A stretch of DNA of 64,000 nt from Candidatus Latescibacterota bacterium (GTDB taxonomy: Bacteria; Latescibacterota; Latescibacteria; Latescibacterales; Latescibacteraceae): the NCBI GenBank assembly GCA_042572165.1, contig JBHPFF010000001.1, positions 10,770-74,769 on the forward strand, written 5' to 3'. Made by a program: the position numbers and the translations under genes. Shown in pieces: positions 13,792-36,790 of the stretch (position 1 is its first letter; every line of letters begins with the position of its first letter). The notes under the pieces are model-generated. The model was not told the DNA's origin. It made no database searches and was given only the letters and a program-made list of their open reading frames with translations.

Positions 13792-13890
13792 AGCAAATAA
13801 CTCCTTTTGTTTTTATCTTCTACCTGCATTGAAACTCTGCTGTGTTTTAAGACATTCCTGTTTTTAGAGACCTGTCTGTATCAATAGTTA

Positions 13891-22948: not shown

Positions 22949-24406
22949 TTACACATCAAAAATCTTACCCGGATTCAGGATGTTATTGGGGTCAACAGCA
23001 CGTTTGATCTTTCGCATAAACTCAAGCTCAGCTTCTGTTGAAAATATTGGCATAAACTTTTTGCGTTTATGGCCAATACCGTGCTCACCAGAAATTGTCC
23101 CGCCAAGATTTTTTGCGGCTATATACAAATCTTTTTGTACACGAGGAAGTTTTCTATTCCAATCCCCATCAGTATTTTTTGGATTTTTTACAATATTTGT
23201 ATGTAAATTGCCATCCCCAGCATGACCATGGATCACAATCTGCATGTTATGTTTTTTTGATATTTTTTCGATTTCAGATATAAGGTCGGGGATTTGCGCT
23301 ATAGGGACAACAATATCTTCGATACTTTCATAGCGGTTGTAATTTCTCCTGGCCTCCCCAAGATTGCGTCGAATTCTCCATAATCTCTCCTGAGTTGTGT
23401 AATTATCGGCAACATACACTTCCTGAGCTCCATTATCCATACATAAGTTTCCAATAGTATCATATTCTTTTTCGACCACCTGTTCATCGCTCCCATCAAC
23501 TTCAATAAGCAACATGGCACCAGAGTTTTCGTAAGGTATATTTTCGTTAAGATACTTGCACGCGTAATGTATACTTATATAATCCATAAACTCAATAGTG
23601 GTAGGAATAATGCCGCACTGTGTCATGATTTTTGGGACGATCTCAATGGCACTCTTAACATCAGGAAAAAGAACAAATAAATCAACCTTTGCTTTTGGAA
23701 GTGGAAGAAGCTTGATAATTACTTTGGTTATGATTCCAAGAGTCCCTTCGGAACCAACCAGGAATGATCTCAGGTTGTAGCCGGTAACATCTTTTACCCT
23801 CTTCCCACCTACCTCGACTATTTCTCCGGTTGGCGTAACAAATTCCAAACCAATTATGTACCGTTCGGTTACCCCATATTTTACTGCTTTACCTCCACCT
23901 GCGTTTTCAGCAACATTACCACCGATAAAACAGGTTTCAACACTCATAGGATAACCGGCAAAGTAAAGTCCCCTATTTTTTACTTTTTCATTTAATTCAT
24001 TTGTTACAACGCCGGGTTCTACAACTGCCATCATATTCTGCTCATCTATCTCAATAATCTTATTCATTCTTTCAACAGATAACACAACACCACCAAATAT
24101 GGGAACTGCTCCTCCGGAAAGACCACTGCCCGCTCCCCGAGGTGTTACAGGAAATAACTTATCATTTGCAAGTTTAACAATTTCAGCGATTTCTCCGACA
24201 GTTTTCGGTTTAATAACTACTTCTGGCATGTGTGCATATTTTTCTTCGGGTATTTCATCATGGGAATACGGTTCCTTCTTTTCTTTGTCGGTAATGACAA
24301 ATTGATCCCCAACGATATCTCTAAGCCTTTTAAGAACAACCTGATCTATCTTATTATATTGGATTTTTACCATTTTATTATCCTTTTTTTCTTTTATCAA
24401 TATCAT
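22949..24406 (-). CDS. FAD-linked oxidase (GlcD / D-lactate dehydrogenase family)
   Basis: FAD-binding PCMH-type motifs (VTPRGAGSGLSGGAVP). C-terminal FAD-oxidase_C region (EHGIGHKRKKFM). Probable start MVKIQYN near 24373. Confidence 0.85.
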   Translation of the reverse strand: MILIKEKKDNKMVKIQYNKIDQVVLKRLRDIVGDQFVITDKEKKEPYSHDEIPEEKYAHMPEVVIKPKTVGEIAEIVKLANDKLFPVTPRGAGSGLSGGAVPIFGGVVLSVERMNKIIEIDEQNMMAVVEPGVVTNELNEKVKNRGLYFAGYPMSVETCFIGGNVAENAGGGKAVKYGVTERYIIGLEFVTPTGEIVEVGGKRVKDVTGYNLRSFLVGSEGTLGIITKVIIKLLPLPKAKVDLFVLFPDVKSAIEIVPKIMTQCGIIPTTIEFMDYISIHYACKYLNENIPYENSGAMLLIEVDGSDEQVVEKEYDTIGNLCMDNGAQEVYVADNYTTQERLWRIRRNLGEARRNYNRYESIEDIVVPIAQIPDLISEIEKISKKHNMQIVIHGHAGDGNLHTNIVKNPKNTDGDWNRKLPRVQKDLYIAAKNLGGTISGEHGIGHKRKKFMPIFSTEAELEFMRKIKRAVDPNNILNPGKIFDV

Positions 24407-25076: not shown

Positions 25077-25092
25077 TGTGATAAATTTCACA
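25077..25092. promoter_or_regulatory. Rex operator-like palindrome TGTGATAAATTTCACA immediately upstream of rex
   Basis: TGTGA-N6-TCACA spacing identical to Rex boxes, about 25 nt upstream of the rex start. A partial half-site TTTGTGAATTCA lies at about 25032-25046. Confidence 0.55.
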
Positions 25093-25114
25093 GGTAGAGA
25101 ATTTGATAAGGAAT

Positions 25115-25786
25115 ATGAAAAAGATTGCGGAAGCAACTATTGTTAGGTTATCAATTTACAACCGCACTCTTCATAAGCTGGAAAGAGAAGGAGTGGAAAT
25201 TATTTCCTCATTTGAAATGGGGGATAAAATTGGGTTTAGTGCAGCTCAGATACGAAAGGATTTGTCCTTTTTTGGTGATTTTGGTGAGACAGGAAAAGGT
25301 TATTATGTGAGGGATTTAATAAATGCTATTTCACGAATCTTAGGAGTTGATAGGAAGTGGGATGTGGTATTAGTAGGTGCAGGTAATTTGGGGGCGGCTT
25401 TGTTTTATTATCCAGAATTTGGAGACCGGGGATTTAATATTGTAGTTGTTTTTGATAATGATCTTCGCAAGATTGGAAAGAGATTGGAGAATATTGTTAT
25501 ACAGGATATATCTGAATTACCTAAAACAGTTAAGGAACTTAACATAAGAATTGGGATTATTACTGTACCCGCACAAGTTTCTCAAGGGATTGCTAATTTG
25601 CTTACCTCTTCCGGGGTAAGGGCAATCTTAAACTTTGCTCCGTCCGTGATTACTGTTCCCGAAGGTATGGAACTACGCAATGTCGGCCCTTGCACGAAAT
25701 TAGAAAGTCTCACTTACTTCTTAACCAATGATGCAAAGGTGAGGACTGATGTTTTTATGAAAACAGAGAATAGCAGCGGATATTGA
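25115..25786 (+). CDS. rex: redox-sensing transcriptional repressor Rex
   Basis: N-terminal winged helix (RLSIYNRTLHKLEREG...SSFEMGDKIGFSAAQIRKDLSFFG). Rossmann fold VVLVGAGNLGAAL. 224 aa. Only 11 bp separate it from the rnfC-like gene. Confidence 0.9.
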   Translation: MKKIAEATIVRLSIYNRTLHKLEREGVEIISSFEMGDKIGFSAAQIRKDLSFFGDFGETGKGYYVRDLINAISRILGVDRKWDVVLVGAGNLGAALFYYPEFGDRGFNIVVVFDNDLRKIGKRLENIVIQDISELPKTVKELNIRIGIITVPAQVSQGIANLLTSSGVRAILNFAPSVITVPEGMELRNVGPCTKLESLTYFLTNDAKVRTDVFMKTENSSGY

Positions 25787-25797
25787 GGATATAGTAT

Positions 25798-27192
25798 ATG
25801 GGAATTTTTACTAAAACGAAATTTCAGGGCGGATATAAATTCAAAAACTTTGAAGGCGCAGCCAAACCGGTTTTGCATGAAATGCCCGTGCCTGAAAAAA
25901 TTGATATCCCCCTTTCAGATATTTTTTCGGATACTTTTGTACTTGCAGTCAGAGAGGGCGATACACTGCGTGCCGGGGATAGAATCATCAAATCGAACAA
26001 CGATTCAAAAGTTTCGCTTATTTCTCCTGTCAACGGTACTGTTTCAAAAGTCAACTCAGATAGAATTATTATTGCATCCGATGGGTCTTCAAATATTAAC
26101 CCTTTAAATGGCCATAAAGAAAACCCCTGGCATTTGGACCGTTCTGAAGTTTTCGATATTTTCTGTGAAACAGGATGCTCATTATTGTGCAGCAACCAAT
26201 TTACTTCAGTAAGCGACTGCGATAAAATCAAATATATTATTATTAATGCGGTTCATAACTCTCCCTTGAACCAGTCATGGATGCCTGATATAATCGGAAA
26301 CAGCGTTATTTTTTCACATGGTCTGAGAACCGTGAACGCATTATTCCCCGAGGCAGAAACAGTTATTGCGATAAACAACAGGAACAGAAAGTACTTTGAT
26401 GCTCCCGAAATAAAAGAGCATGCAAAAATCAAAATCATGTCGGACCGTTATCCCCAGGAACATCCCGAACTTCTTTCGAGGGATACGGTGAATAGAGGGC
26501 TCGTTTCCACGGATGGTGAAAGTGATGATTCAATCCTTATAATGCACTTTTCCGATGTTGTTCACATTGCCGAAGTCATGACACAGGGACGCCCCTTAGT
26601 TGACAGGATTCTTATGATCGCCGGTCCCGGAGTTTCCGAACCCGGGTGGTACCGCGTTCGAATTGGAACGACCCTTGAAGAAATAAAAAAGCAGCTTTTA
26701 AAAAGCGATATTAATAGCCCCTGGAGAATAATAAGGGGGAATCCGCTTTTAGGCGAAGGATTACAATCGCTTGATACATCAATTCTGCCTTCCGACAGTG
26801 AAATATCAGTAATCCGCGAACATGCGACCAGGGAATTATTCAGTTTCATGCGGCCAGGATTCGCTGCTGACAGCTATACAAAATTCACTGTTGCGGAACT
26901 TATTCCTCTGTTTACCAAGAAGCTTGAAACAAATCTTCATGGCGGTGTTCGCCCTTGCGTACAGTGCAATTACTGCGATCAAGTCTGTCCGGTAGATATA
27001 TATCCTTTTCTGATATGGAAGCATGTAAAGGTGAATGAGATTGAGGAGAGTTTCCGGTTCAGGCCTTATAAATGTATTGAATGTGGGTTGTGCGATTATG
27101 TATGTCCATCAAAGATTGATATTTTACAATCAGTTATAAATGCCAAAGATGAGTATCGGAAGCTGAGGAGTGCTGATGAACTTTCTGATTGA
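25798..27192 (+). CDS. rnfC: RnfC-like subunit (C-terminal 2x[4Fe-4S]; canonical NADH/FMN-binding glycine motifs not recognisable)
   Basis: RnfC N-terminal barrel-sandwich region (VREGDTLRAGDRIIKSN...VNGTVSKV). C-terminal CVQCNYCDQVCP and CIECGLCDYVCP. No GGAGFP-type motif can be found in the middle domain. Confidence 0.7.
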   Translation: MGIFTKTKFQGGYKFKNFEGAAKPVLHEMPVPEKIDIPLSDIFSDTFVLAVREGDTLRAGDRIIKSNNDSKVSLISPVNGTVSKVNSDRIIIASDGSSNINPLNGHKENPWHLDRSEVFDIFCETGCSLLCSNQFTSVSDCDKIKYIIINAVHNSPLNQSWMPDIIGNSVIFSHGLRTVNALFPEAETVIAINNRNRKYFDAPEIKEHAKIKIMSDRYPQEHPELLSRDTVNRGLVSTDGESDDSILIMHFSDVVHIAEVMTQGRPLVDRILMIAGPGVSEPGWYRVRIGTTLEEIKKQLLKSDINSPWRIIRGNPLLGEGLQSLDTSILPSDSEISVIREHATRELFSFMRPGFAADSYTKFTVAELIPLFTKKLETNLHGGVRPCVQCNYCDQVCPVDIYPFLIWKHVKVNEIEESFRFRPYKCIECGLCDYVCPSKIDILQSVINAKDEYRKLRSADELSD

Positions 27193-28258
27193 TCGTTTCA
27201 GGGAAATAATCGAATACTATGACGAGAAGTTTGAACACACAAAGTTCAGACCCGCAATGGATACCGTGTCAACATTCTTTTTCTCCCTCAAAACGGTTAC
27301 ACCGCTTTCAGGTCCTCATATCAGGGATAGTTCAGATCTTAAACGTTACATGTTACCTGTAATGTTTGCTGCCGCACCGACAGTGTTGGCATCCATTTAC
27401 TTTTTCGGATGGCGATCTCTTGCTGTCCTGATTTTGAGTTATGTTGTCGGGATTTTCATTGAACTTGGCTTTGCGATACACAATAATGATGAAGTAACTG
27501 AAGGTATGTTTGTCACCTGCATGCTCTACCCCATGATACTACCACCGACAATACCGTTCTGGATGGCTGCTGTCGGCATAGCGGTGGGCATTATCATTGG
27601 TAAAGAAGTATTTGGAGGAACAGGTAAAAACATATTTAATCCGGCAATTGTCGGGAGAGTATTCCTCGCGGTCACATTTCCCGTTGAAATGGCATCGAAA
27701 TGGGTTACGCCGTACAACGGACTTATGGGAGGACTCGTACACTGGGGGAAATCCGGAGATGCGGTGACTGCTGCATCACCTCTTATCGATTTCAAAGGCG
27801 GTGAGACGGCAGCCAGATTATTTGACATGTTTATTGGAAATACGAGCGGTTCACTGGGAGAAACCTCAGCAATTCTCATTATTCTTGGCGGTATATTTCT
27901 TATTTTTACACGGGTCAGTAACTGGCGACTTCCGCTTTCAACCATACTGTCCGCTATAATATTAGCAGCAATTATGAATGCTGCAAATCCCGAAGAATTT
28001 GCTTCGCCACTCTATCATCTGGCCGGTGGAGGCCTTCTTTTCGGAGCGTTTTTCATGGTCACCGATCCTGTCACAAGCCCGTTCACTAATATCGGAAAAT
28101 GGATTTACGGGATATTGATTGGCATCATAATCATTGTTATTAGGAATATGTCGGGTTATCCAGAAGGTACGATGTTTGCCATATTGCTTATGAATATATT
28201 TTCACCTATAATCGATGATGCCGTTTTGGCGTTTAAATTCAGAAAGGCAGGTGAATGA
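27170..28258 (+). CDS. rnfD: Rnf complex subunit D (NqrB family)
   Basis: Polytopic membrane protein. FNPAIVGRVFL. C-terminal FMVTDPVTSPFT, the FMN-attachment Thr region conserved in RnfD/NqrB. Confidence 0.85.
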   Translation: MLMNFLIDRFREIIEYYDEKFEHTKFRPAMDTVSTFFFSLKTVTPLSGPHIRDSSDLKRYMLPVMFAAAPTVLASIYFFGWRSLAVLILSYVVGIFIELGFAIHNNDEVTEGMFVTCMLYPMILPPTIPFWMAAVGIAVGIIIGKEVFGGTGKNIFNPAIVGRVFLAVTFPVEMASKWVTPYNGLMGGLVHWGKSGDAVTAASPLIDFKGGETAARLFDMFIGNTSGSLGETSAILIILGGIFLIFTRVSNWRLPLSTILSAIILAAIMNAANPEEFASPLYHLAGGGLLFGAFFMVTDPVTSPFTNIGKWIYGILIGIIIIVIRNMSGYPEGTMFAILLMNIFSPIIDDAVLAFKFRKAGE

Positions 28259-28833
28259 TGAACAGCCGCGCATGGATGATAGGATTGCTGATTATCATGG
28301 CTATCGTGTGCTCATCATCGCTTGCACTGGTGAATAACATTACTTCCCCGATTATAGAAAAAAATAATGAAATCAAGTATATGCGGACAGTTTTGGATGT
28401 ATTTGATTTGCCTTATGACAGCGAAAACGACGATTCGATTATAGGTAATTTCGAAAAAAACATCGAGGATATAGAAGAACAGGGATTAGTGATGTTTAAA
28501 GAAATTGAAACAGGCAGCATTGCTGTTTCTGTCGAAGGGGGCGGTTTTCAGGGGAATATTTCCATTGTAGTTGCTCTCGATAGTGATACAATTAAAGGTT
28601 TTAAGGTTGTGGCTCAGGAGGAAACACCAGGGCTTGGCGGACGGATCTCGGAAGAAGGTTTTCAGAATTCGTTTGTCGGCAAGAAGGTTTCCGGAGGTAT
28701 CCGCATGACACGGTCGGGAAATGCGGGGACAGACGAATTTGATGCGATTGCAGGTGCAACCGAAACATCCCGTGCCGTTGAGAAGATTTTGAACAGCGGT
28801 TTCGAAAGGTATTTTGAAGTTGTTAAAAAATAA
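28255..28833 (+). CDS. rnfG: Rnf complex subunit G (NqrC family, FMN-binding)
   Basis: N-terminal TM anchor. FMN_bind motif FDAIAGATETSRAV ((S/T)GAT flavinylation site). 192 aa. Confidence 0.85.
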   Translation: MMNSRAWMIGLLIIMAIVCSSSLALVNNITSPIIEKNNEIKYMRTVLDVFDLPYDSENDDSIIGNFEKNIEDIEEQGLVMFKEIETGSIAVSVEGGGFQGNISIVVALDSDTIKGFKVVAQEETPGLGGRISEEGFQNSFVGKKVSGGIRMTRSGNAGTDEFDAIAGATETSRAVEKILNSGFERYFEVVKK

Positions 28834-28936
28834 ATTGCAGAGTTACAGAGTGGCAGGGTGAAAATAAGAGGGACAGAGCATAAGGTATAAAGTAGAAGTA
28901 AAGACTTGCATTTTGAATTAAAACACGGAATTTAAC

Positions 28937-29545
28937 ATGAGTATATTTCAAACAAGAGAATGGAAAATATTTTACGATGGTTTTTGGACTAACAATGCCA
29001 GTTTCCGTATGATGCTCGGATTGTGTTCCACACTGGCTGTGACCAACAGCGTTCGCAACTCGTTTGCCATGTCGATAGGTGTCGTATTTGTAGCGGTAGC
29101 GACTTCGACCATAGTCAGTATCATAAGAAAAATTATTCCGTCGCGTATCCGTCTGGCGGTTTTTATGATGATAATCTCAACATTTACTATTGTCGTAGAC
29201 CAAGTATTGAAAGCATATTACCCCGATATTTCAGGTTCTCTCGGCCCCTATGTAGGCCTTATCATCACTAACTGCTTGGTAATGGGGCGCGCCGAAGCCT
29301 TTGCTATCTCGAATCCCGTATACCCGTCCATCATCGATGCTTTGGGTGTTTCGGGCGGATATGGATTCTCGCTGCTTCTTTTAGCAGCTATCAGGGAATT
29401 GCTCGGATTCGGTACTATTTTCGGTATCACTTTACTTGGTGACTGGTGGACACCCTGGCTTATCATGGTACTGCCGCCCGGTGCGTTTTTCGTTCTCGGC
29501 CTTTATATCTGGCTTCTCCGGTCTATTTCGAAAGAGGGAGCTTGA
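28937..29545 (+). CDS. rnfE: Rnf complex subunit E (NqrD family)
   Basis: 202-aa polytopic membrane protein with a conserved N-terminus (NNASFRMMLGLCSTLAVTNSV) typical of RnfE/NqrD. Confidence 0.85.
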   Translation: MSIFQTREWKIFYDGFWTNNASFRMMLGLCSTLAVTNSVRNSFAMSIGVVFVAVATSTIVSIIRKIIPSRIRLAVFMMIISTFTIVVDQVLKAYYPDISGSLGPYVGLIITNCLVMGRAEAFAISNPVYPSIIDALGVSGGYGFSLLLLAAIRELLGFGTIFGITLLGDWWTPWLIMVLPPGAFFVLGLYIWLLRSISKEGA

Positions 29546-29548
29546 TCA

Positions 29549-30139
29549 ATGGAATTCGATTTAGTTAACCTGTTTGTCATTTTCTTCGCAAGTATGTTAA
29601 CCCAGAATATAGTGTTGACATACTTTCTCGGAATATGCCCGTTTGTTGCGGTATCGAAAGAAGTCCCGATTGCTTTCGGTATGGGAATGGCAGTCAGCTT
29701 CGTAATGGTCATGACCATAGGATTCAACTGGCCGCTTTATCATCTGATACTTGTTCCGCTCAATGTCGAATATCTGGCGTTCATTGTTTTCATCATGGTC
29801 ATTGCTACATTTGTGCAGATAGTTGAGATTTTTATAGACCGTTACTCACCTGTGCTTTATGTTTCGCTCGGAGTTTTCCTCCCGCTTATCACGGTGAATT
29901 GTGCGATACTGGGACTTTCACTTATATCGGTGCTGCGTGAATATAGTTATCCCCAGAGCATGGTTTTTGCTCTCGGGAGCGGTATCGGTTTTACACTTGC
30001 TATTGTAGCGATGGCTGGCATAAGGCAAAAACTTCAGTTCTCAAGTGTTCCCAAAGGCCTGCAGGGTCCGGGGATAACAATGATTATTGCAGGAATAATG
30101 GCCATGGCGTTTATGGGTTTTGCCGGCATAGTAAAATAG
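29549..30139 (+). CDS. rnfA: Rnf complex subunit A (NqrE family)
   Basis: 196-aa polytopic membrane protein (NIVLTYFLGICPFVAVSKE...). Paralogous fold to the preceding gene. Confidence 0.85.
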   Translation: MEFDLVNLFVIFFASMLTQNIVLTYFLGICPFVAVSKEVPIAFGMGMAVSFVMVMTIGFNWPLYHLILVPLNVEYLAFIVFIMVIATFVQIVEIFIDRYSPVLYVSLGVFLPLITVNCAILGLSLISVLREYSYPQSMVFALGSGIGFTLAIVAMAGIRQKLQFSSVPKGLQGPGITMIIAGIMAMAFMGFAGIVK

Positions 30140-30166
30140 TAAACCTTTATTTCAGGATAGACTGCT

Positions 30167-31129
30167 TTGACATTATTGACACCTATATCAGTTCTTTCGA
30201 TGGTAAGTCTCATTTTAGGGATTCTCCTCGTTTTGGCGGATAAGTTTCTTGCCGACTATGGCGAGTGTAAAATTAACATTTCCGGTGAAGACGAATTCAC
30301 TATCCGTGGCGGAGACGTACTGCTTACATACCTTACCGCACATGGTATTAACGTACCTGCAGCCTGCGCCGGCAAAGCGAGCTGTGGGTACTGCAAGGTT
30401 AAGGTATTGAACGGAGACGGGCAGGTTTTGCCTACGGAGAAAGGATTTTTAACTCGTGATGACATTAAGGAGGGGATACGGCTTGCATGTCAGGTCAAGG
30501 TAAAGAGCGACATGGAGATTTTCATGCCCGACTTTATCGAGACTGTCAAAAACATAGTCGCAAATGAACTGTATGATCCGAGCCTGAATTGGCGGTTTAA
30601 CATTTCAGACCGTGAAACTGCCGATACTGAGAAAAAGAAAGCGAAGAAAAAGAAAGCAAAGATAAAGAGTGAGCCTGAAGGTCTAGACAATATATATGAA
30701 ATAATAAGGAGTAATAATGATTCCCGGGGCTCAATTATGCCGATTTTACAACAAATCAACAATGAATATAATTATTTGCCTGATTATGCTCTAAAATGTG
30801 TTTCTAATGAAATGAACATTCCATTAAGCGAGATTTTTCGTATTGCCACTTTTTATAATGTTTTCAGCCTGACTCCGAGGGGAAAAAATATAATAAAAGT
30901 GTGTTTGGGGACAGCATGTCATGTTAAGGGAGCACCTTTGGTTGTTGATGCGATTGAAAGAGAACTGGGTATCAGTCCGGGGCAGACAACGGAGGATTTG
31001 AATTTTACTCTTGAAACAGTTGCTTGTCTCGGATGCTGTGGTTTGGCTCCTGTAATTACTGTCGGCGAGAATATATATGGCAAAATAACCCAAAGTAAAA
31101 TTCCAAAATTAATTAAAGAATATACTTAA
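30167..31129 (+). CDS. membrane-anchored fusion protein: NqrF-type N-terminal [2Fe-2S] ferredoxin domain + Lys/Glu-rich linker + NuoE/HydC-type thioredoxin-like [2Fe-2S] domain
   Basis: TM helix. INISGEDEFTIRGGDVLLTYLTAHGINVPAACAGKASCGYCKVKV...LACQVKVKSDMEIFMP matches the NqrF ferredoxin domain. Linker KKKAKKKKAKIK. C-terminal VCLGTACHVKGAPLVV...VACLGCCGLAPV is the NuoE 4-Cys 2Fe-2S signature. Occupies the position where rnfB is expected. Confidence 0.75.
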   Translation: MTLLTPISVLSMVSLILGILLVLADKFLADYGECKINISGEDEFTIRGGDVLLTYLTAHGINVPAACAGKASCGYCKVKVLNGDGQVLPTEKGFLTRDDIKEGIRLACQVKVKSDMEIFMPDFIETVKNIVANELYDPSLNWRFNISDRETADTEKKKAKKKKAKIKSEPEGLDNIYEIIRSNNDSRGSIMPILQQINNEYNYLPDYALKCVSNEMNIPLSEIFRIATFYNVFSLTPRGKNIIKVCLGTACHVKGAPLVVDAIERELGISPGQTTEDLNFTLETVACLGCCGLAPVITVGENIYGKITQSKIPKLIKEYT

Positions 31130-31155
31130 TACTTAATTGTAAAATAAGGTTCACC

Positions 31156-31539
31156 ATGCCCAAAATAAAGATTGAGGATCTGGATAAAATAAGTGAAAGA
31201 ATACGTAAAACTACTGTTTTACGTGAGGGTGCTGGAAGAGCAAAGATTACCGTTCACATGGGTACATGCGGGATATCGGCAGGAGCACGTCAAATAATGA
31301 GTACTTTAATTGACGAGATTGACAAAAGAGATATAAAAGATATTATTTTAACCACATCGGGCTGCGCTGGACTATGCAGCAAAGAACCGATGGCAACTGT
31401 AGAGTTGAGTGGAAAGGCTCCGGTCAAATATGTCGATTTAACACCTGAGAAAACAGTTAAAATTTTCACTGAACATGTACTCGGTGGTAAAATTGTAAAC
31501 GAATATGCATTAGCAATAGGAAGTGAAAGAATATCCTAA
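31156..31539 (+). CDS. thioredoxin-like [2Fe-2S] ferredoxin (small hydrogenase/NuoE-fold accessory protein)
   Basis: Cys pattern HMGTCGISAGA...TSGCAGLCSKEP. 127 aa. Typical companion of HydB-type subunits. Confidence 0.7.
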   Translation: MPKIKIEDLDKISERIRKTTVLREGAGRAKITVHMGTCGISAGARQIMSTLIDEIDKRDIKDIILTTSGCAGLCSKEPMATVELSGKAPVKYVDLTPEKTVKIFTEHVLGGKIVNEYALAIGSERIS

Positions 31540-31542
31540 AAA

Positions 31543-33336
31543 ATGGAAAAGCACAGAACACATTTAATGCTATGTGCAGGGACTGCATGTGTATCAAATA
31601 AATCCTTCAGGATCAAAGAGGTTCTGGATGAAGAACTTGAGAAACATGGTCTTCAGGATGAAATTCTGGTTGTATTAACAGGTTGTAACGGATTTTGTGC
31701 AGTCGGGCCGGTCATGACAGTCAAACCCGATGGGATATTCTACCAGAATTTGAAAGAAGAGGATATTCCTCATTTGGTCGAGGAACACTTCTTAAAAGGA
31801 AGACCGGTCAAAAAGCTGATGTATACTATACCGGAAGAAAAAGAAGTCATTCCGATTATGATGGATATCGGCTTTTTTGCTCATCAGAAATTAATTGCTC
31901 TGAAAAACAGAGGGCTGATTGATCCTGAGAAAATCGATGAAAGCATTGCAAGAGACGGTTACAGAGCCATTGCCAAGGTTCTTACATCCAGCACTCCTGA
32001 AGAGGTAATACAGGAAATTAAAGTTTCCGGAATTAGGGGAAGGGGTGGCGCAGGTTTTCCGACTGGATTGAAATGGGAATTTTGCCGAAAATCAGAAGGT
32101 GAAACTAAATATTTAATCTGTAATGCCGATGAGGGTGATCCGGGTGCATTTATGGATCGAAGCATTATAGAATCAGATCCGCATCTGGTTCTGGAGGGAA
32201 TGACCATCGGCGCTTATGCAATGGGAGCCAATGAAGGATATGTCTATATCAGAAATGAATATCCGCTGGCAATGAAAAGACTTGAAATAGCTATTAATCA
32301 AGCGCGTGATTACGGTTTCCTCGGGGATAACATTTTTGATACCGATTTCAGCTTTGATGTCCATATAAAAAAAGGTGCTGGAGCATTTGTCTGCGGAGAG
32401 GAAACCTCTTTAATGTCTGCTATTGAGGGAATTCCTCCCGAACCGAGACAACGACCACCGTTTCCAACTGAATCCGGCCTATACGGAAAACCCACCAATA
32501 TTAATAATGTTGAGACATTGGCTACTATTCCGTCTATCATACTTAGAGGAGCCGAATGGTTCTCATCCATCGGGACGGAAAAGAGCAAAGGTACAAAAGT
32601 ATTCTCGCTGGTAGGAAAGATAAATAATACCGGACTTGTCGAGGTGCCGATGGGTATTACCATGAGAGAAATTATTTATGATATTGGTGACGGTATTCCG
32701 AATGGAAAGAAATTCAAGGCTGTTCAGACCGGCGGTCCGTCAGGCGGTTGTATACCCGCTGAATTGTTAGACATTCAGGTTGATTATGAACGTCTGGCTG
32801 AGGCAGGTTCTATCATGGGATCTGGCGGGATGATTGTTATGGATGAAAATACCTGCATGGTTGATATTGCCAGATATTTTATTAAATTTACTAACGATGA
32901 ATCCTGCGGTAAATGTTCGACATGCCGTGAAGGCTCGATGGCAATTTATACAATTCTCGAAAAAATATGTAGCGGGAAAGGCGAGAAAGAAGATTTAATT
33001 TTTTTAGAGGAACTTTGTCCGGTAATAATAGATGCTTCAATGTGCGGGTTGGGACAGACATTACCGAATCCGGTGCTCACCTCTATTCGATATTTCAGAG
33101 ATGAATACGAAGAACACATACATGATAAAAAATGCCGTGCTGGTGTATGTAAGACATTAATAACATTTAGTATTGACAGTGAAAAATGTACGGGATGTAC
33201 ATTGTGTGCCAGGAACTGTCCCCAGACAGCTATTTCCGGGGAGAGAAAGACACCACACACAATAGATCAGGAAAAATGCATTAAATGCAGTGTCTGCCGT
33301 GATGTATGCAAATTCAAGGCGGTAGTTGTACAGTGA
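31543..33336 (+). CDS. NuoF/HydB-like NADH-dehydrogenase flavo-iron-sulfur subunit (N-terminal Trx-like 2Fe-2S, FMN/NADH site, C-terminal 2x[4Fe-4S])
   Basis: GRGGAGFPTGLKW (NADH/FMN site). ESCGKCSTCREGS (N3 cluster). N-terminal CAGTAC...CNGFCAVGP. C-terminal CTGCTLCARNCP and CIKCSVCRDVCK. 597 aa. Confidence 0.9.
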   Translation: MEKHRTHLMLCAGTACVSNKSFRIKEVLDEELEKHGLQDEILVVLTGCNGFCAVGPVMTVKPDGIFYQNLKEEDIPHLVEEHFLKGRPVKKLMYTIPEEKEVIPIMMDIGFFAHQKLIALKNRGLIDPEKIDESIARDGYRAIAKVLTSSTPEEVIQEIKVSGIRGRGGAGFPTGLKWEFCRKSEGETKYLICNADEGDPGAFMDRSIIESDPHLVLEGMTIGAYAMGANEGYVYIRNEYPLAMKRLEIAINQARDYGFLGDNIFDTDFSFDVHIKKGAGAFVCGEETSLMSAIEGIPPEPRQRPPFPTESGLYGKPTNINNVETLATIPSIILRGAEWFSSIGTEKSKGTKVFSLVGKINNTGLVEVPMGITMREIIYDIGDGIPNGKKFKAVQTGGPSGGCIPAELLDIQVDYERLAEAGSIMGSGGMIVMDENTCMVDIARYFIKFTNDESCGKCSTCREGSMAIYTILEKICSGKGEKEDLIFLEELCPVIIDASMCGLGQTLPNPVLTSIRYFRDEYEEHIHDKKCRAGVCKTLITFSIDSEKCTGCTLCARNCPQTAISGERKTPHTIDQEKCIKCSVCRDVCKFKAVVVQ

Positions 33337-33704
33337 AAATAAAAGATATCCTGGTAGAACTCGAGGCGGAACAGGTATGGGCTACCAACTGTCCCGGCTA
33401 TGAAAACTGTGAAGTAAACGCTTGTCATGCAAGCGATCAGATAAGCGATGTACTCACATTTCACGGCGAAGGCTCACTCCTTTTGACGGGATTGACAAAT
33501 TCTCAGGTAATCAGGACCGCCGAGATTCTCGATTTTGTAGCTATATGCTTTGTCCGGGGCAAAATACCTCAGCCTGATACTATTAAATTGGCAGAAGTAA
33601 AAGGTATAATGATGTTTGCAACTCCTTATTCGATGTACACTGCATGCGGAAGACTCTATGCGAAGGGTATCCCTGCGGGGCGTCCTAAAAAGGGTGATGA
33701 ATAA
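33333..33704 (+). CDS. DRTGG-domain protein
   Basis: Probable GTG start overlapping the NuoF-like stop. Small alpha/beta domain (GEGSLLLTGLTNSQVIRTAEILD) of the kind seen beside [FeFe]-hydrogenase HydABC loci. Paralogous to 34617..34964. Confidence 0.55.
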   Translation: MKIKDILVELEAEQVWATNCPGYENCEVNACHASDQISDVLTFHGEGSLLLTGLTNSQVIRTAEILDFVAICFVRGKIPQPDTIKLAEVKGIMMFATPYSMYTACGRLYAKGIPAGRPKKGDE

Positions 33705-34612
33705 TGAACAGTGAAATTACAAAGATCAACGAACTCATCCTTGAACTCCGTGTCGGCGATGTCATGAAAAAGGATCTTATCACTGTGACTCCATCTTCAC
33801 CGATGAAAAATCTTCGGGAAATTCTGAGGGATAACCATATCTCCGGTACTCCCGTCGTCGAAGGGGAAGACCTTGTTGGAATAATCAGCATCGAAGATTT
33901 CATCAAGTGGTTGAGAAACGGTGAAACGGATGTATCAATTAAAATGCGGATGACCAGAGATGTAGTCACCATCTACGATGATGAAATGCTCATACAAGCG
34001 CTCACTAAATTAAACAAGTACGGATTTGGCAGACTCCCGGTAATATCCCGTGAGACCGGCAAACTCAAAGGTTTGATCACTAAAGGCAACATTCTCGAGG
34101 GACTGCTCATAAAACTTGATATAGATTACCGTCATGTCGAGAAAAAACAGGCTGTTTCAAACAGTTTGTTTGAAAACATTGTTGCCGATAAAAGCGCTTT
34201 GATTCTTGAATATATTGTTAACGATAAGGACATAAGCCGCGCAGGATCGACAGCGGTTGAACTGAAAACCACCCTGAAAAAGTTAGGGATATCTCCGAAA
34301 ATTGCGAGATGTGTGGCGATTGCGACCTATGAGGCCGAGATGAACATTATTTTCTTTGCTAAAAGCGGGAAAATAAAAGCGAACATCGGAGCCGATTCTA
34401 TTTGCATAAGCTTTAATGATCACGGTCCGGGGATACCGGATATCGAAAAGGCGATGAGCCAGGGGTATTCAACCGCTCCTGAATGGGTAAGAGAACTCGG
34501 ATTTGGAGCCGGAATGGGCCTTAATAATATAAAGACATGCTCGGACTATATGAATATCAATTCTACAGTCGGGAAGGGAACACGACTGAATATCAAAATT
34601 AACCTCGAGTAA
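33704..34612 (+). CDS. CBS-pair + GHKL ATPase (anti-sigma/Ser-kinase-like) regulatory protein
   Basis: Two CBS motifs (VGDVMKKDLITVTP...; TRDVVTIYDDEM). C-terminal HATPase_c (DHGPGIPDIEKA...GAGMGLNNI...GKGTRLNI). Confidence 0.7.
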   Translation: MNSEITKINELILELRVGDVMKKDLITVTPSSPMKNLREILRDNHISGTPVVEGEDLVGIISIEDFIKWLRNGETDVSIKMRMTRDVVTIYDDEMLIQALTKLNKYGFGRLPVISRETGKLKGLITKGNILEGLLIKLDIDYRHVEKKQAVSNSLFENIVADKSALILEYIVNDKDISRAGSTAVELKTTLKKLGISPKIARCVAIATYEAEMNIIFFAKSGKIKANIGADSICISFNDHGPGIPDIEKAMSQGYSTAPEWVRELGFGAGMGLNNIKTCSDYMNINSTVGKGTRLNIKINLE

Positions 34613-34616
34613 TATC

Positions 34617-34964
34617 ATGAGTTTGGCCGAAATTGCCCGTAAGCTTCAGTTTGATGTGATGTCAGGTGAGGAATCACTGACATGTGAGATTAGAGGTGGT
34701 TATGCCAGTGACCTTATCAGTGATGTGATAGCAAATGCTCAGGAAGGTGATTTGTGGGTGACACTTCAGACTCATCAGAATACAGTCGCCGTCGCGAGTA
34801 TGAAAGATTTGGCTGGAATCGTTTTTGTCAATGGTCGTCAGCCTGATGAGGATACTCTCGAAAAAGCGAAGGAAGAAAATATTCCGCTAATGGTTAGCGA
34901 TCTACCTTCATTCGAACTGATCGGCCGGCTTTATGAACTTGGTATTCGTGGAGTAAATGCTTGA
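34617..34964 (+). CDS. DRTGG-domain protein (second copy)
   Basis: 115 aa, ASDLISDVIANAQEGDLWVTLQTH...FVNGRQP. Similar to 33333..33704. Confidence 0.55.
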   Translation: MSLAEIARKLQFDVMSGEESLTCEIRGGYASDLISDVIANAQEGDLWVTLQTHQNTVAVASMKDLAGIVFVNGRQPDEDTLEKAKEENIPLMVSDLPSFELIGRLYELGIRGVNA

Positions 34965-35680
34965 GGACATTTTATGCTGATTTACACATACATACCTGCC
35001 TTTCACCCTGTGCTGAAAATGATATGTCACCCCCGGTGGTGGTGGAACAGGCGCACGCGAGCGGACTTGATATAATAGCAGTTTGTGATCATAATTCGGC
35101 TGACAATGTCGGGGCTGTAATCGGCGCTGCCGAAGATTCAGGGCTTTCGGTAATCGGAGGAATGGAGATAACATCGAGCGAGGAGGTTCACATACTGGGG
35201 CTCTTTCGAGATATAGCACTCCTCGGAAAAGCTCAGGAAGTTGTATACGATAACCTTCCCGGTGAAAATAATCCTGATTATTTCGGTGAGCAGTTATTAG
35301 CTGATAAATATGGTAATATAACAGGAAACATCAACAGGCTTCTGATTGGAGCCACTGTTCTTTCGCTTGAAGAAATCGTTTGTATGATCCACGAGTTTGG
35401 GGGAATAGCAATAGCATCTCATATCGACCGGCCGAGTTTCAGTGTTATCAGCCAGCTCGGATTCATTCCCGAGGTGCTTGAGCTGGACGGTGTCGAGATA
35501 CATTCTGGTAAGCTAGAGGGACTACCGGAGAATATGCCGATTGTATTTTCATCGGATGCACACCGTCCGGAGGATATCGGCAACAGGCGCACACGGTTTC
35601 ACATAGAAGTAGGAACACTCGATGAAATCAGACTGGCGCTACGAAATAAGGGATGTCGGGAAATCCATTCAGGACAATGA
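34961..35680 (+). CDS. PHP-domain (polymerase/histidinol-phosphatase-like) phosphoesterase
   Basis: YADLHIHTCLSPCA...IAVCDHNSADN...ASHIDRP: the His/Asp metal-binding motifs of the PHP family. Confidence 0.75.
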   Translation: MRTFYADLHIHTCLSPCAENDMSPPVVVEQAHASGLDIIAVCDHNSADNVGAVIGAAEDSGLSVIGGMEITSSEEVHILGLFRDIALLGKAQEVVYDNLPGENNPDYFGEQLLADKYGNITGNINRLLIGATVLSLEEIVCMIHEFGGIAIASHIDRPSFSVISQLGFIPEVLELDGVEIHSGKLEGLPENMPIVFSSDAHRPEDIGNRRTRFHIEVGTLDEIRLALRNKGCREIHSGQ

Positions 35681-36129
35681 GAGATTTATCGCTTCATATT
35701 ATTGATATTGCAGAAAATTCGATTCGTGCCGGGGCCGATCTGATTGAGATCATACTTGCCGAGGATGAGAAAAACGACAGGCTGACAGTTGAGGTTATCG
35801 ATAACGGGAAAGGGATGAATCCCGAGATTCTTAAAAAGGCATCGGATCCGTTTTACTCCGGCAAAGACGGAAAAAGAATCGGGCTTGGATTGTCAATGCT
35901 TGCTCAGGCGGCACGAGAAGCCGATGGGGAAATGGAAATATCCTCTACTCCGGGGCAGGGGACAAAAGTGAAAGCTGTTTTCCGCAGTAGTCATCCAGAC
36001 TTGAAACCTATTGGAGAAATGGCGGCAACTGTTCAGGCTCTTGTGGTAGGAAATTCAGAAATCGATTTTGTATTTGAATATAGAAGAGGATTGGAGATTA
36101 CCCGTATAGACACACGAGAGATCAAGTGA
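35653..36129 (+). CDS. GHKL-type ATPase domain protein (HATPase_c only)
   Basis: IDNGKGMNPEIL...GLGLSMLAQA...GQGTKVKAVF. Likely true start MRDLSLH at about 35677. Confidence 0.65.
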   Translation: MSGNPFRTMRDLSLHIIDIAENSIRAGADLIEIILAEDEKNDRLTVEVIDNGKGMNPEILKKASDPFYSGKDGKRIGLGLSMLAQAAREADGEMEISSTPGQGTKVKAVFRSSHPDLKPIGEMAATVQALVVGNSEIDFVFEYRRGLEITRIDTREIK

Positions 36130-36229
36130 CAACGAGTAATATGATTATTGTTACAATCAACTCCCAGCAGTTTGAGGTTGAAGACGGAAAAAATCACTCT
36201 AAGCATAAGCTGTTTTATAGGGATTAATT

Positions 36230-36790
36230 ATGGTAAACATAACAATAAATGAAAAAGAATTACAGGTTGAAGAGGGAAAAACCATTCTTGAGGTCGCTCA
36301 GGATGAGGGCATAGAGATTCCCACCTTATGTTACCACAAAGAATTGTCTTCATACGGCGCCTGTAGATTGTGTCTTGTTGAAATAACTGGTGGCGGAAAA
36401 CCGGGACTTGTTGTGTCATGTCTTTCCAAAGTTGCCGATGACCTGATTATAAAGACTAATACTGAAAGAGTGATGAAGTCACGAAAGATTATTATCGAAT
36501 TGCTTCTGGCTCGTTCCCCCAACTCAAAAATAATTCAGAAACTGGCTCAAGAATACGATGTTGGAAAACCGCGATTTCAGCCTGAAAACCAGGAAGAATG
36601 CATTCTTTGTGGACTTTGCATCCGTGTCTGTTCCGAAGTTGTCGGAAGATGTGCAATAAATTTCGCAAAAAGAGGTGTCGAAAGAAAAGTACAGACACCT
36701 TTTGAAGAAATTTCTGAACCATGTATCGGATGCGGTGCCTGTGCTTATCTCTGTCCAACCAATGTAATTAAAATTGAGTCGGCTGATTAG
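36230..36790 (+). CDS. HydA/NuoG N-terminal-like iron-sulfur protein ([2Fe-2S] + His-ligated [4Fe-4S] + [4Fe-4S]); no H-cluster domain
   Basis: TLCYHKELSSYGACRLCLVEI (2Fe-2S). CILCGLCIRVC and CIGCGACAYLCP ferredoxin motifs. The ORF stops at 186 aa. The 370-nt gap downstream encodes no H-cluster motifs in any frame. Confidence 0.8.
   Translation: MVNITINEKELQVEEGKTILEVAQDEGIEIPTLCYHKELSSYGACRLCLVEITGGGKPGLVVSCLSKVADDLIIKTNTERVMKSRKIIIELLLARSPNSKIIQKLAQEYDVGKPRFQPENQEECILCGLCIRVCSEVVGRCAINFAKRGVERKVQTPFEEISEPCIGCGACAYLCPTNVIKIESAD

What the first reader, a model, noticed from the sequence alone, without database searches (positions are those of the whole stretch)
25798..33336. Non-canonical Rnf-type complex: RnfB replaced by an NqrF-Fd/NuoE fusion and followed by a NuoF-type subunit; RnfC-like gene lacks a recognisable NADH/FMN site
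Gene order is rex, rnfC-like, rnfD, rnfG, rnfE, rnfA. The position normally held by rnfB (TM anchor plus polyferredoxin) holds a different protein. It has an NqrF-like TM helix and plant-type 2Fe-2S domain (ACAGKASCGYCKVKV...LACQVKV), a poly-Lys/Glu linker, and a complete NuoE/HydC-type 2Fe-2S domain (CLGTACHV...CLGCCGLAP). A small Trx-like Fd and a full NuoF/HydB-type flavoprotein (GRGGAGFPTG) follow. The RnfC-like protein keeps its two C-terminal [4Fe-4S] motifs, but I cannot find the GGAGFP-type NADH/FMN signature in it. One possible model is a membrane Rnf/Nqr-like ion pump whose NADH-oxidising module is a docked NuoEF (HydBC-like) unit, with a ferredoxin-side RnfC that binds no nucleotide. 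I do not recall this architecture among described Rnf or Nqr variants.
Basis: partly seen in the sequence, partly recalled or inferred. Interest (0 to 1): 0.8.

Follow-up and report, generated by a model that had tools for sequence, protein, structure and literature searches.

The report
Nqr-type pump with hydrogenase-derived NADH module
This operon from an uncultured anaerobe joins a sodium/proton-pumping Nqr-type membrane complex to an NADH/ferredoxin flavoprotein module borrowed from electron-bifurcating hydrogenases, a conserved combination found in at least four to five bacterial phyla that I could not find described in the literature.

Summary
Window 25103-36790 (Ca. Latescibacterota MAG) is one tightly packed gene string. 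It runs rex, an RnfC/NqrA-like subunit, then the B/D, C/G, D/E and E/A pump subunits. Next comes a TM-helix + NqrF-type [2Fe-2S] + linker + NuoE/HydC fusion, a small Trx-like protein and a full HydB-type flavoprotein.

The A-like subunit has lost the FMN/NADH glycine motif but keeps all eight Cys of two [4Fe-4S] clusters. The same order recurs with every full-length fusion homologue that has flanks. These come from Planctomycetota, Desulfobacterota, Spirochaetota and unclassified MAGs. In two of them the Fer2 anchor and NuoE are separate adjacent genes.

Trees place the pump on the Nqr side of the Rnf/Nqr split. Its B subunit carries the NqrB-specific N-terminal helices that form the quinone pocket. 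MenA-like and polyprenyl synthase genes recur nearby.

Best reading: an Nqr-lineage ion pump whose NqrF FAD domain is replaced by a tethered BfuABC-type NADH/ferredoxin module ("Nqr-Bfu"), probably reducing menaquinone. The ferredoxin role and the job of the A-subunit clusters are inferred, not shown. It is a new variant of known kinds.

The parts
25077..25092 (+). Rex-type operator palindrome TGTGATAAATTTCACA, 10 nt upstream of the rex start
   Evidence: The exact core TGTGA-N6-TCACA occurs twice in the window against 0.08 expected. Two such boxes sit between rex and the A gene in relative L088.
25103..25786 (+). rex, the redox-sensing (NADH/NAD+) repressor and first gene of the string
   Evidence: NCBIfam NF003993 Rex scores 263.5 bits, above its cutoff of 217. 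Rex is also the first gene in L081 and L088.
25798..27192 (+). A' subunit: an NqrA/RnfC homologue without the FMN/NADH motif but with 2x[4Fe-4S]
   Evidence: Domain maps and alignments are. Eight Cys are invariant in 55 homologues. The AF2 model has pLDDT 87 and matches RnfC at TM 0.70-0.71 and NqrA at TM 0.66-0.67.
27170..28258 (+). B' subunit (NqrB/RnfD homologue) with an NqrB-type N-terminal extension and a flavinylation motif TAAS
   Evidence: PF03116 gives E 1e-104. The best PDB match is NqrB at 232 bits, against RnfD at 187/180/147. Residues 9-88 align with NqrB 5-84. The extension is conserved across the family.
28255..28833 (+). C' subunit (RnfG/NqrC homologue), a periplasmic FMN_bind protein with motif AGAT
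28937..29545 (+). D' subunit (NqrD/RnfE homologue) with both Cys for the intramembrane [2Fe-2S]
   Evidence: The Cys lie in 'GLCSTLAV' and 'ITNCLVMG'.
29549..30139 (+). E' subunit (NqrE/RnfA homologue) with both Cys for the intramembrane [2Fe-2S]
   Evidence: The Cys lie in 'GICPFVAV' and 'TVNCAILG'.
30167..31129 (+). F'-BfuC fusion: TM helix (4-27), NqrF-type [2Fe-2S] domain (33-119), flexible Lys/Glu linker (137-168) and NuoE/HydC [2Fe-2S] domain (173-320)
   Evidence: All eight ligand Cys are invariant in 32 homologues. In the AF2 model the linker has pLDDT below 50 and the whole model has pTM 0.37. At least 120 full-length homologues exist.
31156..31539 (+). Small thioredoxin-like protein (3 Cys + His); an optional accessory present in the window, L004, L006 and L081
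31543..33336 (+). BfuB/HydB-type flavoprotein: N-terminal [2Fe-2S], FMN/NADH site, N3-type [4Fe-4S] and C-terminal 2x[4Fe-4S]
   Evidence: It matches bifurcating NiFe-hydrogenase HydB 7t2r_B at 873 bits, aligned 4-594 of 597 with all Cys motifs kept.
33306..36129 (+). Five regulator-type genes (DRTGG-like, CBS+HATPase, DRTGG, PHP, HATPase) of the kind carried in HydABC operons
   Evidence: Pfam hits are. The same block is present in L006 and L081. HisK/HydD-type genes in hydrogenase operons are noted in PMC9304861.
36230..36790 (+). BfuA' : a HydA/NuoG N-terminal-like Fe-S protein ([2Fe-2S] + 2x[4Fe-4S]) with no H-cluster domain and no His-ligated cluster
   Evidence: It directly follows the flavoprotein gene in L001-L005, L019 and L072.

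Best explanation
The genes from rex to 36790 encode one membrane complex. Its core (A'B'C'D'E') is an ion-translocating redox pump of the Nqr lineage.

Its electron-input subunit keeps the NqrF membrane anchor and mobile [2Fe-2S] domain. In place of NqrF's FAD/NADH domain it carries a flexible tether to a HydC/NuoE domain. That domain recruits a HydB-type flavoprotein and a truncated HydA-type Fe-S subunit. Together these form a BfuABC module taken, with its regulators, from an electron-bifurcating hydrogenase operon.

Proposed route:
- NADH is oxidised at the BfuB FMN. Reduced ferredoxin is probably a co-donor, as in other Bfu enzymes.
- Electrons pass through the Bfu clusters to the swinging NqrF-type [2Fe-2S].
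- They continue to the intramembrane D'/E' [2Fe-2S], the C' FMN, the B' FMN and riboflavin.
- They end most likely on menaquinone at the NqrB-type N-terminal pocket, with Na+ or H+ export.

Rex switches the operon on when NADH/NAD+ is high.

Shown: the gene content, motifs, conserved synteny and fusion, the phylogenetic side, and the Rex box. Inferred: the physical complex, the direction of flow, quinone as acceptor, ferredoxin confurcation, the ion pumped, and the role of the two [4Fe-4S] clusters kept in A'.
For: - Domain architecture and cofactor ligands are intact in every subunit.
- The anchor plus Fer2 part is specifically NqrF-like, transmembrane helix included.
- Gene order A'-B'-C'-D'-E'-F'/BfuC-BfuB-BfuA' holds in all nine related loci with flanks, from Pirellulales, Anaerohalosphaeraceae, other Planctomycetota, Desulfofustis and other Desulfobacterota, Spirochaetota and unclassified MAGs.
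- In L019 and L072 the Fer2 anchor and NuoE are separate but still adjacent.
- Gaps are tiny and no terminator was found.
- BfuB, BfuC and BfuA' match structurally characterised bifurcating enzymes over their full length.
- The pump groups with Nqr. Quartets give 98% and a majority in 30/30 bootstraps. The paralogue-rooted clade has 199/200 and 194/200 support.
- B' has the N-terminal helices that form the quinone pocket in NqrB and are absent from RnfD (review PMC12174285).
- MenA-like prenyltransferase and long-chain polyprenyl synthase genes recur beside these clusters.
- A Rex box lies at the operon start, and Rex boxes occur in L088.
- ApbE is in the window.
- The Bfu family already has two predicted membrane-pump members, Nuo-Bfu and Mbh-Bfu, with the same logic (PMC9304861).
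Against: - There is no biochemical or expression data. All copies are from MAGs or metagenomes.
- The strictly conserved eight Cys in A' imply a working [4Fe-4S] pair. A pure quinone reductase would not need it, so the true exit could be a soluble acceptor.
- The MenA and polyprenyl neighbours are recurrent but not universal, and their scores are below the NCBIfam cutoffs.
- The match between the B' N-terminus and NqrB is weak (26 bits, E 5.5e-5).
- All NCBIfam Nqr equivalog scores are below cutoff.
- The trees are neighbour-joining only. The paralogue-rooted tree has few Rnf/Nqr references, and deep nodes are unresolved.
- How the Fer2 domain reaches the Bfu clusters was not modelled.
Confidence: 0.5

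Rival explanations
1. The input module is as in the best explanation, but electrons leave through the two [4Fe-4S] clusters of A' to a cytoplasmic acceptor rather than to a quinone. The acceptor could be a protein or cofactor of higher potential than NADH, or one that docks where RnfC's FMN domain used to work.
For: - All eight Cys are invariant across 55 homologues and three subtypes of A'.
- In Rnf these clusters are the exit route from riboflavin (PMC12174285).
- Subtype ii A' proteins keep a degenerate 51K-like pocket ('GIPTRFKSS', 'SEPYN').
- A Desulfobacula-type Rnf whose RnfC lacks the NADH domain has been proposed to use another acceptor (PMC5109826).
Against: - No conserved candidate acceptor gene sits in the neighbourhood. 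MetF is next to the cluster only in the window.
- The NqrB-type quinone-pocket helices are present.
- MenA-like genes recur nearby.
Confidence: 0.2
2. It is an Rnf-like ferredoxin:NAD+ oxidoreductase with swapped ends. Ferredoxin would interact with the nucleotide-free A' clusters, and NAD(H) would react at the docked NuoEF.
For: - A' has exposed-type ferredoxin-like clusters and no nucleotide motif.
- NuoF has a complete NADH site.
- Rnf is reversible (PMC11889175).
Against: - In all solved Rnf and Nqr complexes the low-potential donor enters on the B/F side and the acceptor sits on the C/A-D/B side (PMC12174285). Ferredoxin-to-NAD+ flow in the swapped geometry would run the pump backwards.
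- BfuB already carries its own ferredoxin-interaction domain.
- The pump is phylogenetically Nqr-side.
Confidence: 0.1
3. The complex works mainly in reverse. Quinol (or another donor) plus the ion gradient drives electrons back through the pump into the Bfu module. The module then bifurcates them to NAD+ and ferredoxin, giving reverse electron transport for biosynthesis or syntrophy.
For: - Bfu enzymes and Rnf are reversible (PMC9304861; PMC11889175).
- The hosts are anaerobes living near thermodynamic limits.
Against: - Rex control suggests induction when NADH is in excess, which fits NADH oxidation.
- Quinol (about -74 mV) to NAD+/ferredoxin is very strongly uphill.
Confidence: 0.1
4. The genes encode two unrelated enzymes that merely sit side by side. 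One would be a pump remnant lacking an input subunit, the other an ordinary soluble NuoEF/BfuABC oxidoreductase.
For: BfuABC modules occur next to many partners, and some have no obvious third substrate (PMC9304861).
Against: - The NuoE domain is covalently fused to an NqrF-type membrane anchor and [2Fe-2S] domain in at least 120 proteins.
- Synteny is identical in 9 of 9 loci across phyla.
- Only 27 nt separate the two gene sets, with no terminator.
- Without this fusion protein the pump would have no input subunit at all.
Confidence: 0.05

Closest known systems
[quoted passage not shown]
   Same: - The five-subunit pump core is shared.
- The F subunit has the NqrF-type N-terminal TM helix plus mobile [2Fe-2S] domain.
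- NqrB-type N-terminal helices are present.
- The A subunit has no FMN.
- The pump groups phylogenetically with Nqr.
   Different: - NqrF's FAD/NADH (FNR-like) domain is absent. NuoE + HydB + HydA' replace it.
- The A subunit keeps two [4Fe-4S] clusters.
- The NqrB, NqrD and NqrE loop insertions of canonical Nqr are missing.
- All NCBIfam Nqr equivalog cutoffs are missed.
Rnf complex (RnfABCDEG; A. woodii 9eri, C. tetanomorphum 7zc6, A. vinelandii 8ahx)
   Same: - Gene order C-D-G-E-A is shared.
- The subunits are compact and RnfD/G/E/A-sized.
- The C/A subunit has 2x[4Fe-4S].
   Different: - There is no RnfB.
- The C-like subunit has no FMN/NADH site.
- The D-like subunit has the NqrB N-terminal extension.
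- The pump falls outside the Rnf clades.
Bfu family of electron-bifurcating enzymes (HydABC, NiFe-HydABCSL, NfnABC; predicted membrane members Nuo-Bfu and Mbh-Bfu; Schut et al. 2022, PMC9304861)
   Same: - The BfuB is complete (873 bits to 7t2r_B).
- BfuC is present.
- BfuA is minimal, with A1/A2/A4-type clusters.
- HydABC-type regulator genes are present.
   Different: - The partner is an Nqr/Rnf-type pump. It is not among the partners listed in that paper or in the one supplementary file of that paper held by the library, which may not include its Supplementary Table 1.
- BfuC is fused to a membrane anchor and an extra [2Fe-2S] domain.
Desulfobacula toluolica Tol2-type Rnf (large RnfB with NAD-binding sites; RnfC lacking the 51K and SLBB domains), as described in PMC5109826
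   Same: The concept matches. A nucleotide site sits on the input (B) side, and the C subunit has no NADH domain, which implies a different C-side partner.
   Different: That variant keeps an RnfB polyferredoxin carrying the NAD-binding domain. Here there is no RnfB, and the NADH site is a separate HydB-type subunit held by an NqrF-like anchor.
Undescribed Nqr-like clusters with an Fe-S-bearing A subunit and a normal NqrF (loci L083, L084, L085, L088 found here)
   Same: - They are the nearest relatives of the window's B, D and E subunits.
- Their A subunit has [4Fe-4S] motifs.
- Rex and MenA-like neighbours are present.
   Different: Their input subunit is Fer2 + FAD_binding_6 + NAD_binding_1 (true NqrF type), and they have no NuoE/HydB/HydA' genes.

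Membership tests
Rnf complex | RnfB: membrane-anchored polyferredoxin as the ferredoxin-side subunit | tested here: not met
   No RnfB-type gene is in the cluster or anywhere in the window. The rest of the genome is not available.
Rnf complex | RnfC with an FMN/NADH site (Complex1_51K domain, GxGGAxFPT and NxxECEP motifs) | tested here: not met
   There is no PF01512 hit. The motifs are replaced by 'CSLLCSNQF' and 'NAVHNSPL'.
Rnf complex | RnfC C-terminal 2x[4Fe-4S] | tested here: met
   Both CxxCxxCxxxCP motifs are present and invariant in 55 homologues.
Rnf complex | Pump subunits cluster phylogenetically with RnfD/E/A | tested here: not met
   The subunits group with Nqr. Quartets give 98%, and the clade excluding three Rnf references has 199/200 and 194/200 support. 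These are NJ trees only.
Na+-NQR | NqrF: TM helix + [2Fe-2S] ferredoxin domain + FAD/NADH FNR-like domain | tested here: not met
   The TM helix and Fer2 part are present (TIGR01941 residues 7-129, 109.5 bits). No FAD_binding_6 or NAD_binding_1 domain is present, and a NuoE domain takes its place.
Na+-NQR | NqrA without redox cofactors | tested here: not met
   The FMN motif is absent, as in NqrA, but the eight cluster Cys are retained. The NqrA equivalog NF003761 scores 187.5 bits against a cutoff of 450.
Na+-NQR | NqrB with the extra N-terminal amphipathic helices that form the quinone site (absent in RnfD) | tested here: met
   Residues 9-88 align with V. cholerae NqrB 5-84 (26 bits, E 5.5e-5). 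The extension is conserved in family members. The definition comes from PMC12174285. Quinone binding itself was not tested.
Na+-NQR | Core cofactor ligands: flavinylation motifs in B and C, and four Cys in D/E for the intramembrane [2Fe-2S] | tested here: met
   B' has 'TAAS', with Ser where 140 of 146 relatives have Thr. C' has 'AGAT'. The Cys pairs in D' and E' are present.
Bfu (BfuABC) family | BfuB with FMN/NADH site, NADH_4Fe-4S, N-terminal [2Fe-2S] and C-terminal 2x[4Fe-4S] | tested here: met
   The full-length alignment to bifurcating HydB 7t2r_B keeps all Cys motifs.
Bfu (BfuABC) family | BfuC (NuoE-type [2Fe-2S]) and a BfuA feeding electrons to the core | tested here: met
   The NuoE domain scores 157.7 bits to HydC 8a6t_C, and its four Cys are invariant. 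BfuA' has [2Fe-2S] + 2x[4Fe-4S] and no His-ligated cluster, which is Type-2-like.
Bfu (BfuABC) family | Electron bifurcation/confurcation between NAD(H), ferredoxin and a third substrate | not testable with these tools
   This needs enzyme assays.
[FeFe]-hydrogenase HydABC | HydA with an H-cluster domain (Fe_hyd_lg_C) | tested here: not met
   The 186-aa protein covers only the N-terminal Fe-S domains. No Fe_hyd_lg_C hit occurs in the window.

The most novel reading that the evidence does not exclude
This would be a third kind of membrane-bound Bfu enzyme, an 'Nqr-Bfu'. It would couple flavin-based electron confurcation or bifurcation (NADH + ferredoxin) directly to an Nqr-type Na+/H+ pump and menaquinone. 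It belongs to a broad, unstudied radiation of Nqr-side pumps in anaerobes. In that radiation the A subunit still carries RnfC's Fe-S clusters, and the catalytic head of the F subunit is interchangeable between an FNR type and a hydrogenase-derived type. These would be living intermediates that make the Rnf-to-Nqr transition experimentally tractable.
Probability: 0.4. Interest if true: 0.85.

Novelty: new variant of a known kind. Interest (0 to 1): 0.72.

Why it matters
Rnf and Nqr are the two known members of a unique class of redox-driven ion pumps. Current reviews describe Nqr as arising from Rnf by loss of rnfB, gain of an FNR-type NqrF, and loss of all cofactors from NqrA (PMC12174285, PMC11889175).

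The clusters found here fall between those end states.
- They have an NqrF anchor and [2Fe-2S] without the FNR domain.
- Their A subunits have lost FMN but not the Fe-S clusters.
- Their NqrB quinone helices come without the later loop insertions.

They also extend the Bfu family to a new type of membrane partner. If the complex confurcates NADH and ferredoxin onto menaquinone while pumping ions, the energy budgets assumed for Latescibacterota, anaerobic Planctomycetota, Desulfobacterota and Spirochaetota in sediments would change. In metagenome studies these genes are currently annotated as 'Nqr', 'Rnf' or 'NuoE'.

The system would also give a natural experiment on what the NqrA/RnfC clusters do.

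Tried and rejected
- **MetF/MTHFR (37164-38714) as the acceptor partner.** Rejected, because it is absent next to the cluster in all other loci.
- **A hydrogenase function.** Rejected, because there is no H-cluster domain in the 186-aa protein or in the window.
- **Strict bipartition bootstraps for deep nodes of the B-subunit tree.** These were uninformative (3-11 of 60) because of rogue taxa. I used quartet frequencies and a paralogue-rooted D/E tree instead.
- **The idea that the Bfu-linked family is a single clade 'between' Rnf and Nqr.** Not supported. Bfu-type and NqrF-type clusters interleave (0-1 of 200 for monophyly), so I do not claim it is ancestral.
- **A Rex box in L081.** None found with up to one mismatch.
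- **The 18-mer Rex consensus with three mismatches.** Not enriched (7 found against 6.3 expected). Only the exact core palindrome is enriched.
- **Foldseek of the A' model.** It does not discriminate RnfC from NqrA (TM 0.70-0.71 against 0.66-0.67).
- **Literature searches.** Seven full-text searches and thirteen papers found no description of this architecture. They did find other variants: the NqrB-NAD-domain 'Nqr/Rnf-like' system, NqrBCDEF without NqrA, and the Tol2-type Rnf. Absence from this library is not proof of absence.
- **A search for a cultured host.** Only MAG and metagenome copies were found.

Full report
**What is there.** The window matches a Candidatus Latescibacterota MAG. The fusion protein is 100% identical to an NCBI entry of that name. 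Between 25103 and 36790 all genes lie on the + strand, with overlaps or gaps of 3-103 nt. No convincing terminator lies inside the string.

Pfam and NCBIfam give this order:
- Rex.
- An RnfC/NqrA-like protein (A').
- Homologues of RnfD/NqrB (B'), RnfG/NqrC (C'), RnfE/NqrD (D') and RnfA/NqrE (E').
- A 320-aa fusion protein.
- A 127-aa thioredoxin-like protein.
- A 597-aa NuoF/HydB-type flavoprotein.
- Five regulator-type genes (DRTGG, CBS+HATPase, DRTGG, PHP, HATPase).
- A 186-aa protein with a [2Fe-2S] and two [4Fe-4S] motifs.

**The fusion protein.**
- Residues 7-129 match the NqrF equivalog model over its first 129 positions, transmembrane helix included (109.5 bits).
- Residues 6-129 match V. 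cholerae NqrF residues 7-132.
- Residues 173-320 match HydC of the T. kivui bifurcating hydrogenase (157.7 bits).
- An AlphaFold2 model gives a confident N-terminal helix (4-27), a beta-grasp domain, a linker at 137-168 with pLDDT below 50, and a NuoE fold. The pTM is 0.37, so the domains have no fixed mutual orientation.
- In an alignment of 32 homologues (45-71% identity) all eight cluster-ligand Cys are invariant and the linker is variable.

**The A' subunit.** No Complex1_51K domain is detected.
- Against the solved RnfC of C. tetanomorphum, 'AGIVGMGGATFPTHVK' aligns with 'ETGCSLLCSNQF--TSVS'.
- 'NAAECEPY' aligns with 'NAVHNSPL', which resembles NqrA 'TAMDTNPL'.
- Both CxxCxxCxxxCP motifs are intact.
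- The protein also shares with NqrA a roughly 40-residue segment before the Fe-S domain.
- Eight Cys are invariant in 55 homologues.
- A confident model (pLDDT 87) superposes about equally on RnfC (TM 0.70-0.71) and NqrA (TM 0.66-0.67).

Three subtypes of A' accompany the fusion.
- The Latescibacterota type is seen here.
- A roughly 495-aa type has a degenerate pocket ('GIPTRFKSS', 'SEPYN') and still scores as Complex1_51K.
- A 441-aa Desulfobacterota type is very NqrA-like.

All three keep the clusters. So 'binds no nucleotide' is well founded for the window's protein and less certain for the family as a whole.

**The soluble module is a Bfu module.**
[quoted passage not shown] Every Cys motif of the N-terminal [2Fe-2S], the N3-type cluster and the C-terminal 2x[4Fe-4S] is kept. 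The next hits are HydB, NfnB and StnB of other bifurcating enzymes. Complex I NuoF/Nqo1 scores about half as much and covers only the core.
- The 186-aa protein matches a 247-aa NuoG-like subunit (9mqx_A) and the N-terminal part of HydA. It lacks the H-cluster domain and the His-ligated cluster. That corresponds to the minimal BfuA of 'Type 2' enzymes in Schut et al. 2022 (PMC9304861).
- The regulator genes are of the kind carried in HydABC operons. This suggests the whole block was captured from a hydrogenase operon.

**Conservation.** At least 120 cluster representatives carry the full-length Fer2+NuoE architecture at 45-70% identity.

In every one with enough flanking DNA the order is A'-B'-C'-D'-E'-fusion-(small protein)-BfuB-BfuA'.

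A further metagenomic contig (L081) reproduces the window's full layout, including rex and the regulators. In the Spirochaetota and unclassified MAGs the Fer2 anchor and NuoE are two adjacent genes. This shows that the two parts work together whether or not they are fused.

All copies are from MAGs or metagenomes and carry only generic 'NuoE' names.

**Rnf or Nqr?**
- Model and PDB scores are mixed. B' scores NqrB 232 against RnfD 187. D' scores NqrD 166 against RnfE 158. E' scores RnfA 183 against NqrE 179. C' is nearer RnfG.
- I searched 1.84 billion representatives with B' and built an NJ tree of 146 sequences. The canonical Nqr clade (56/60), the fusion-linked core (52/60) and an Rnf group containing A. 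vinelandii RnfD (52/60) are supported. In 98% of sampled quartets, with a majority in 30 of 30 bootstraps, the family pairs with Nqr rather than with either RnfD group.
- A D/E tree rooted by the RnfE/NqrD-RnfA/NqrE paralogy puts the family, its NqrF-type relatives and V. cholerae Nqr together, to the exclusion of three Rnf references, in 199/200 and 194/200 bootstraps.
- B' also has a roughly 45-residue N-terminal extension that aligns with NqrB residues 5-84 and is conserved in the family. The 2025 review states that two N-terminal helices of NqrB, absent from RnfD, form the quinone site (PMC12174285).
- The family lacks the loop insertions of canonical NqrB, NqrD and NqrE.

**Relatives change the evolutionary reading.** I looked up the genomic context of the nearest B' relatives.
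- L083 has an RnfC-like A with Complex1_51K and Fer4, B to E, and a true NqrF.
- L084 and L085 have Fe-S-bearing A subunits with a true NqrF.
- L088 (Omnitrophota) has rex, a subtype-ii A, B to E, an NqrF-type protein, then a MenA-like prenyltransferase and a polyprenyl synthase.

So A subunits with Fe-S clusters are a general feature of a poorly known Nqr-side radiation. Within it, FNR-type and Bfu-type input heads interleave on the tree. I therefore do not claim that the window's type is ancestral. I claim only that the input head has been exchanged.

**Acceptor and regulation.**
- MenA-like UbiA genes and long-chain polyprenyl synthases lie beside the clusters in L081 and L088. UbiA alone is present in L085, and polyprenyl synthase alone in L001 and L019. 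A homologue lies 7 kb upstream in the window.
- ApbE is 13 kb upstream.
- The exact Rex core palindrome TGTGA-N6-TCACA occurs twice in the window (0.08 expected), once just upstream of rex. Two such boxes precede the A gene in L088.

Together with the NqrB-type pocket, this favours NADH-driven quinone reduction that is switched on when NADH accumulates.

**Mechanism proposed (inferred).**
- NADH is oxidised at the BfuB FMN. By analogy with other Bfu enzymes, reduced ferredoxin is a co-donor at the BfuB C-terminal clusters.
- Electrons pass through the Bfu clusters to the tethered NqrF-type [2Fe-2S].
- That domain shuttles to the D'/E' intramembrane cluster, as in Nqr.
- The route continues through the C' FMN, the B' FMN and riboflavin to menaquinone, with ion export.

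This is the same logic Schut et al. proposed for Nuo-Bfu with low-potential menaquinone.

The conserved [4Fe-4S] pair in A' is not explained by this route. It may be an alternative exit, and that is the main rival model.

**Novelty.** I found no description of this architecture in:
- the 2025 RNF/NQR review;
- the 2014 Nqr evolution paper;
- the Bfu family paper, or the one supplementary file of it that the library holds;
- the two flavinylation surveys;
- the Rnf structure papers;
- several MAG and SRB genome papers.

The described variants that come closest are:
- the Tol2-type Rnf, with NAD-binding RnfB and RnfC lacking the 51K/SLBB domains (PMC5109826);
- NqrBCDEF without NqrA (PMC5924567);
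- the two-subunit Nqr/Rnf-like system (PMC8238504).

I classify the finding as a new variant built from two known kinds. The literature check is limited to the library available here.

Noticed in passing
window 22518-22533: A second exact Rex-type palindrome (TGTGAAAATATTCACA) lies between the FAD-linked oxidase gene (22949-24406, -) and the MtrC/MtrF-like multihaem cytochrome gene (20979-22004, -). This suggests that Rex also controls a cytochrome-based electron outlet.
   Followed up: partly
window 11024-14361 (- strand): ApbE flavin transferase (11664-12659) sits next to an FMN_bind protein (11024-11719) and two ORFs without Pfam hits (12688-13791, 13891-14361). This may be a separate flavinylated extracytoplasmic electron-transfer system. 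The ApbE could also serve the pump.
   Followed up: partly
window 37164-38714: A methylenetetrahydrofolate reductase fused to a DUF5981/MetV-like C-terminal domain follows the cluster after a 373-nt gap. It is not conserved next to the cluster in other loci.
   Followed up: yes
window 39229-41854; L081 19539-20960: A pair of radical SAM genes is conserved downstream of the cluster in both the window and L081. One is PTO1314-like with DUF3463. The other is a TIGR04190-family B12-binding radical SAM protein (691 bits, above its cutoff). In L081 the pair sits with a MenA-like prenyltransferase and a polyprenyl synthase. Function is unknown, possibly isoprenoid or quinone modification.
   Followed up: partly
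L083 6272-12655; L088 9001-14477: Nqr-like clusters combine an RnfC-like A subunit that still has a Complex1_51K domain with a normal NqrF (Fer2+FAD+NAD). That gives two nucleotide-type sites in one pump. What such a complex would catalyse is unexplained.
   Followed up: partly
window 31156-31539: The small thioredoxin-like protein and its homologues have only three Cys plus a conserved His ('VHMGTCGI(A/S)AG ... SGCAGLCS') instead of the usual four Cys. Cluster binding or a regulatory role is uncertain.
   Followed up: partly
window 27170-28258 (motif GDAVTAASPL): The FMN-attachment position of the B' subunit is Ser in the window, where 140 of 146 relatives have Thr.
   Followed up: partly
L019 9989-10910; L072 9995-10937: In a Spirochaetota MAG and an unclassified MAG the membrane-anchored Fer2 protein and NuoE are separate adjacent genes, with an 8-nt overlap and a 38-nt gap respectively. 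Elsewhere they are a fusion.
   Followed up: yes
L083 13888-15645: A full [FeFe]-hydrogenase large subunit gene (with Fe_hyd_lg_C) lies 1.2 kb downstream of an NqrF-type, Fe-S-A Nqr-like cluster.
   Followed up: no
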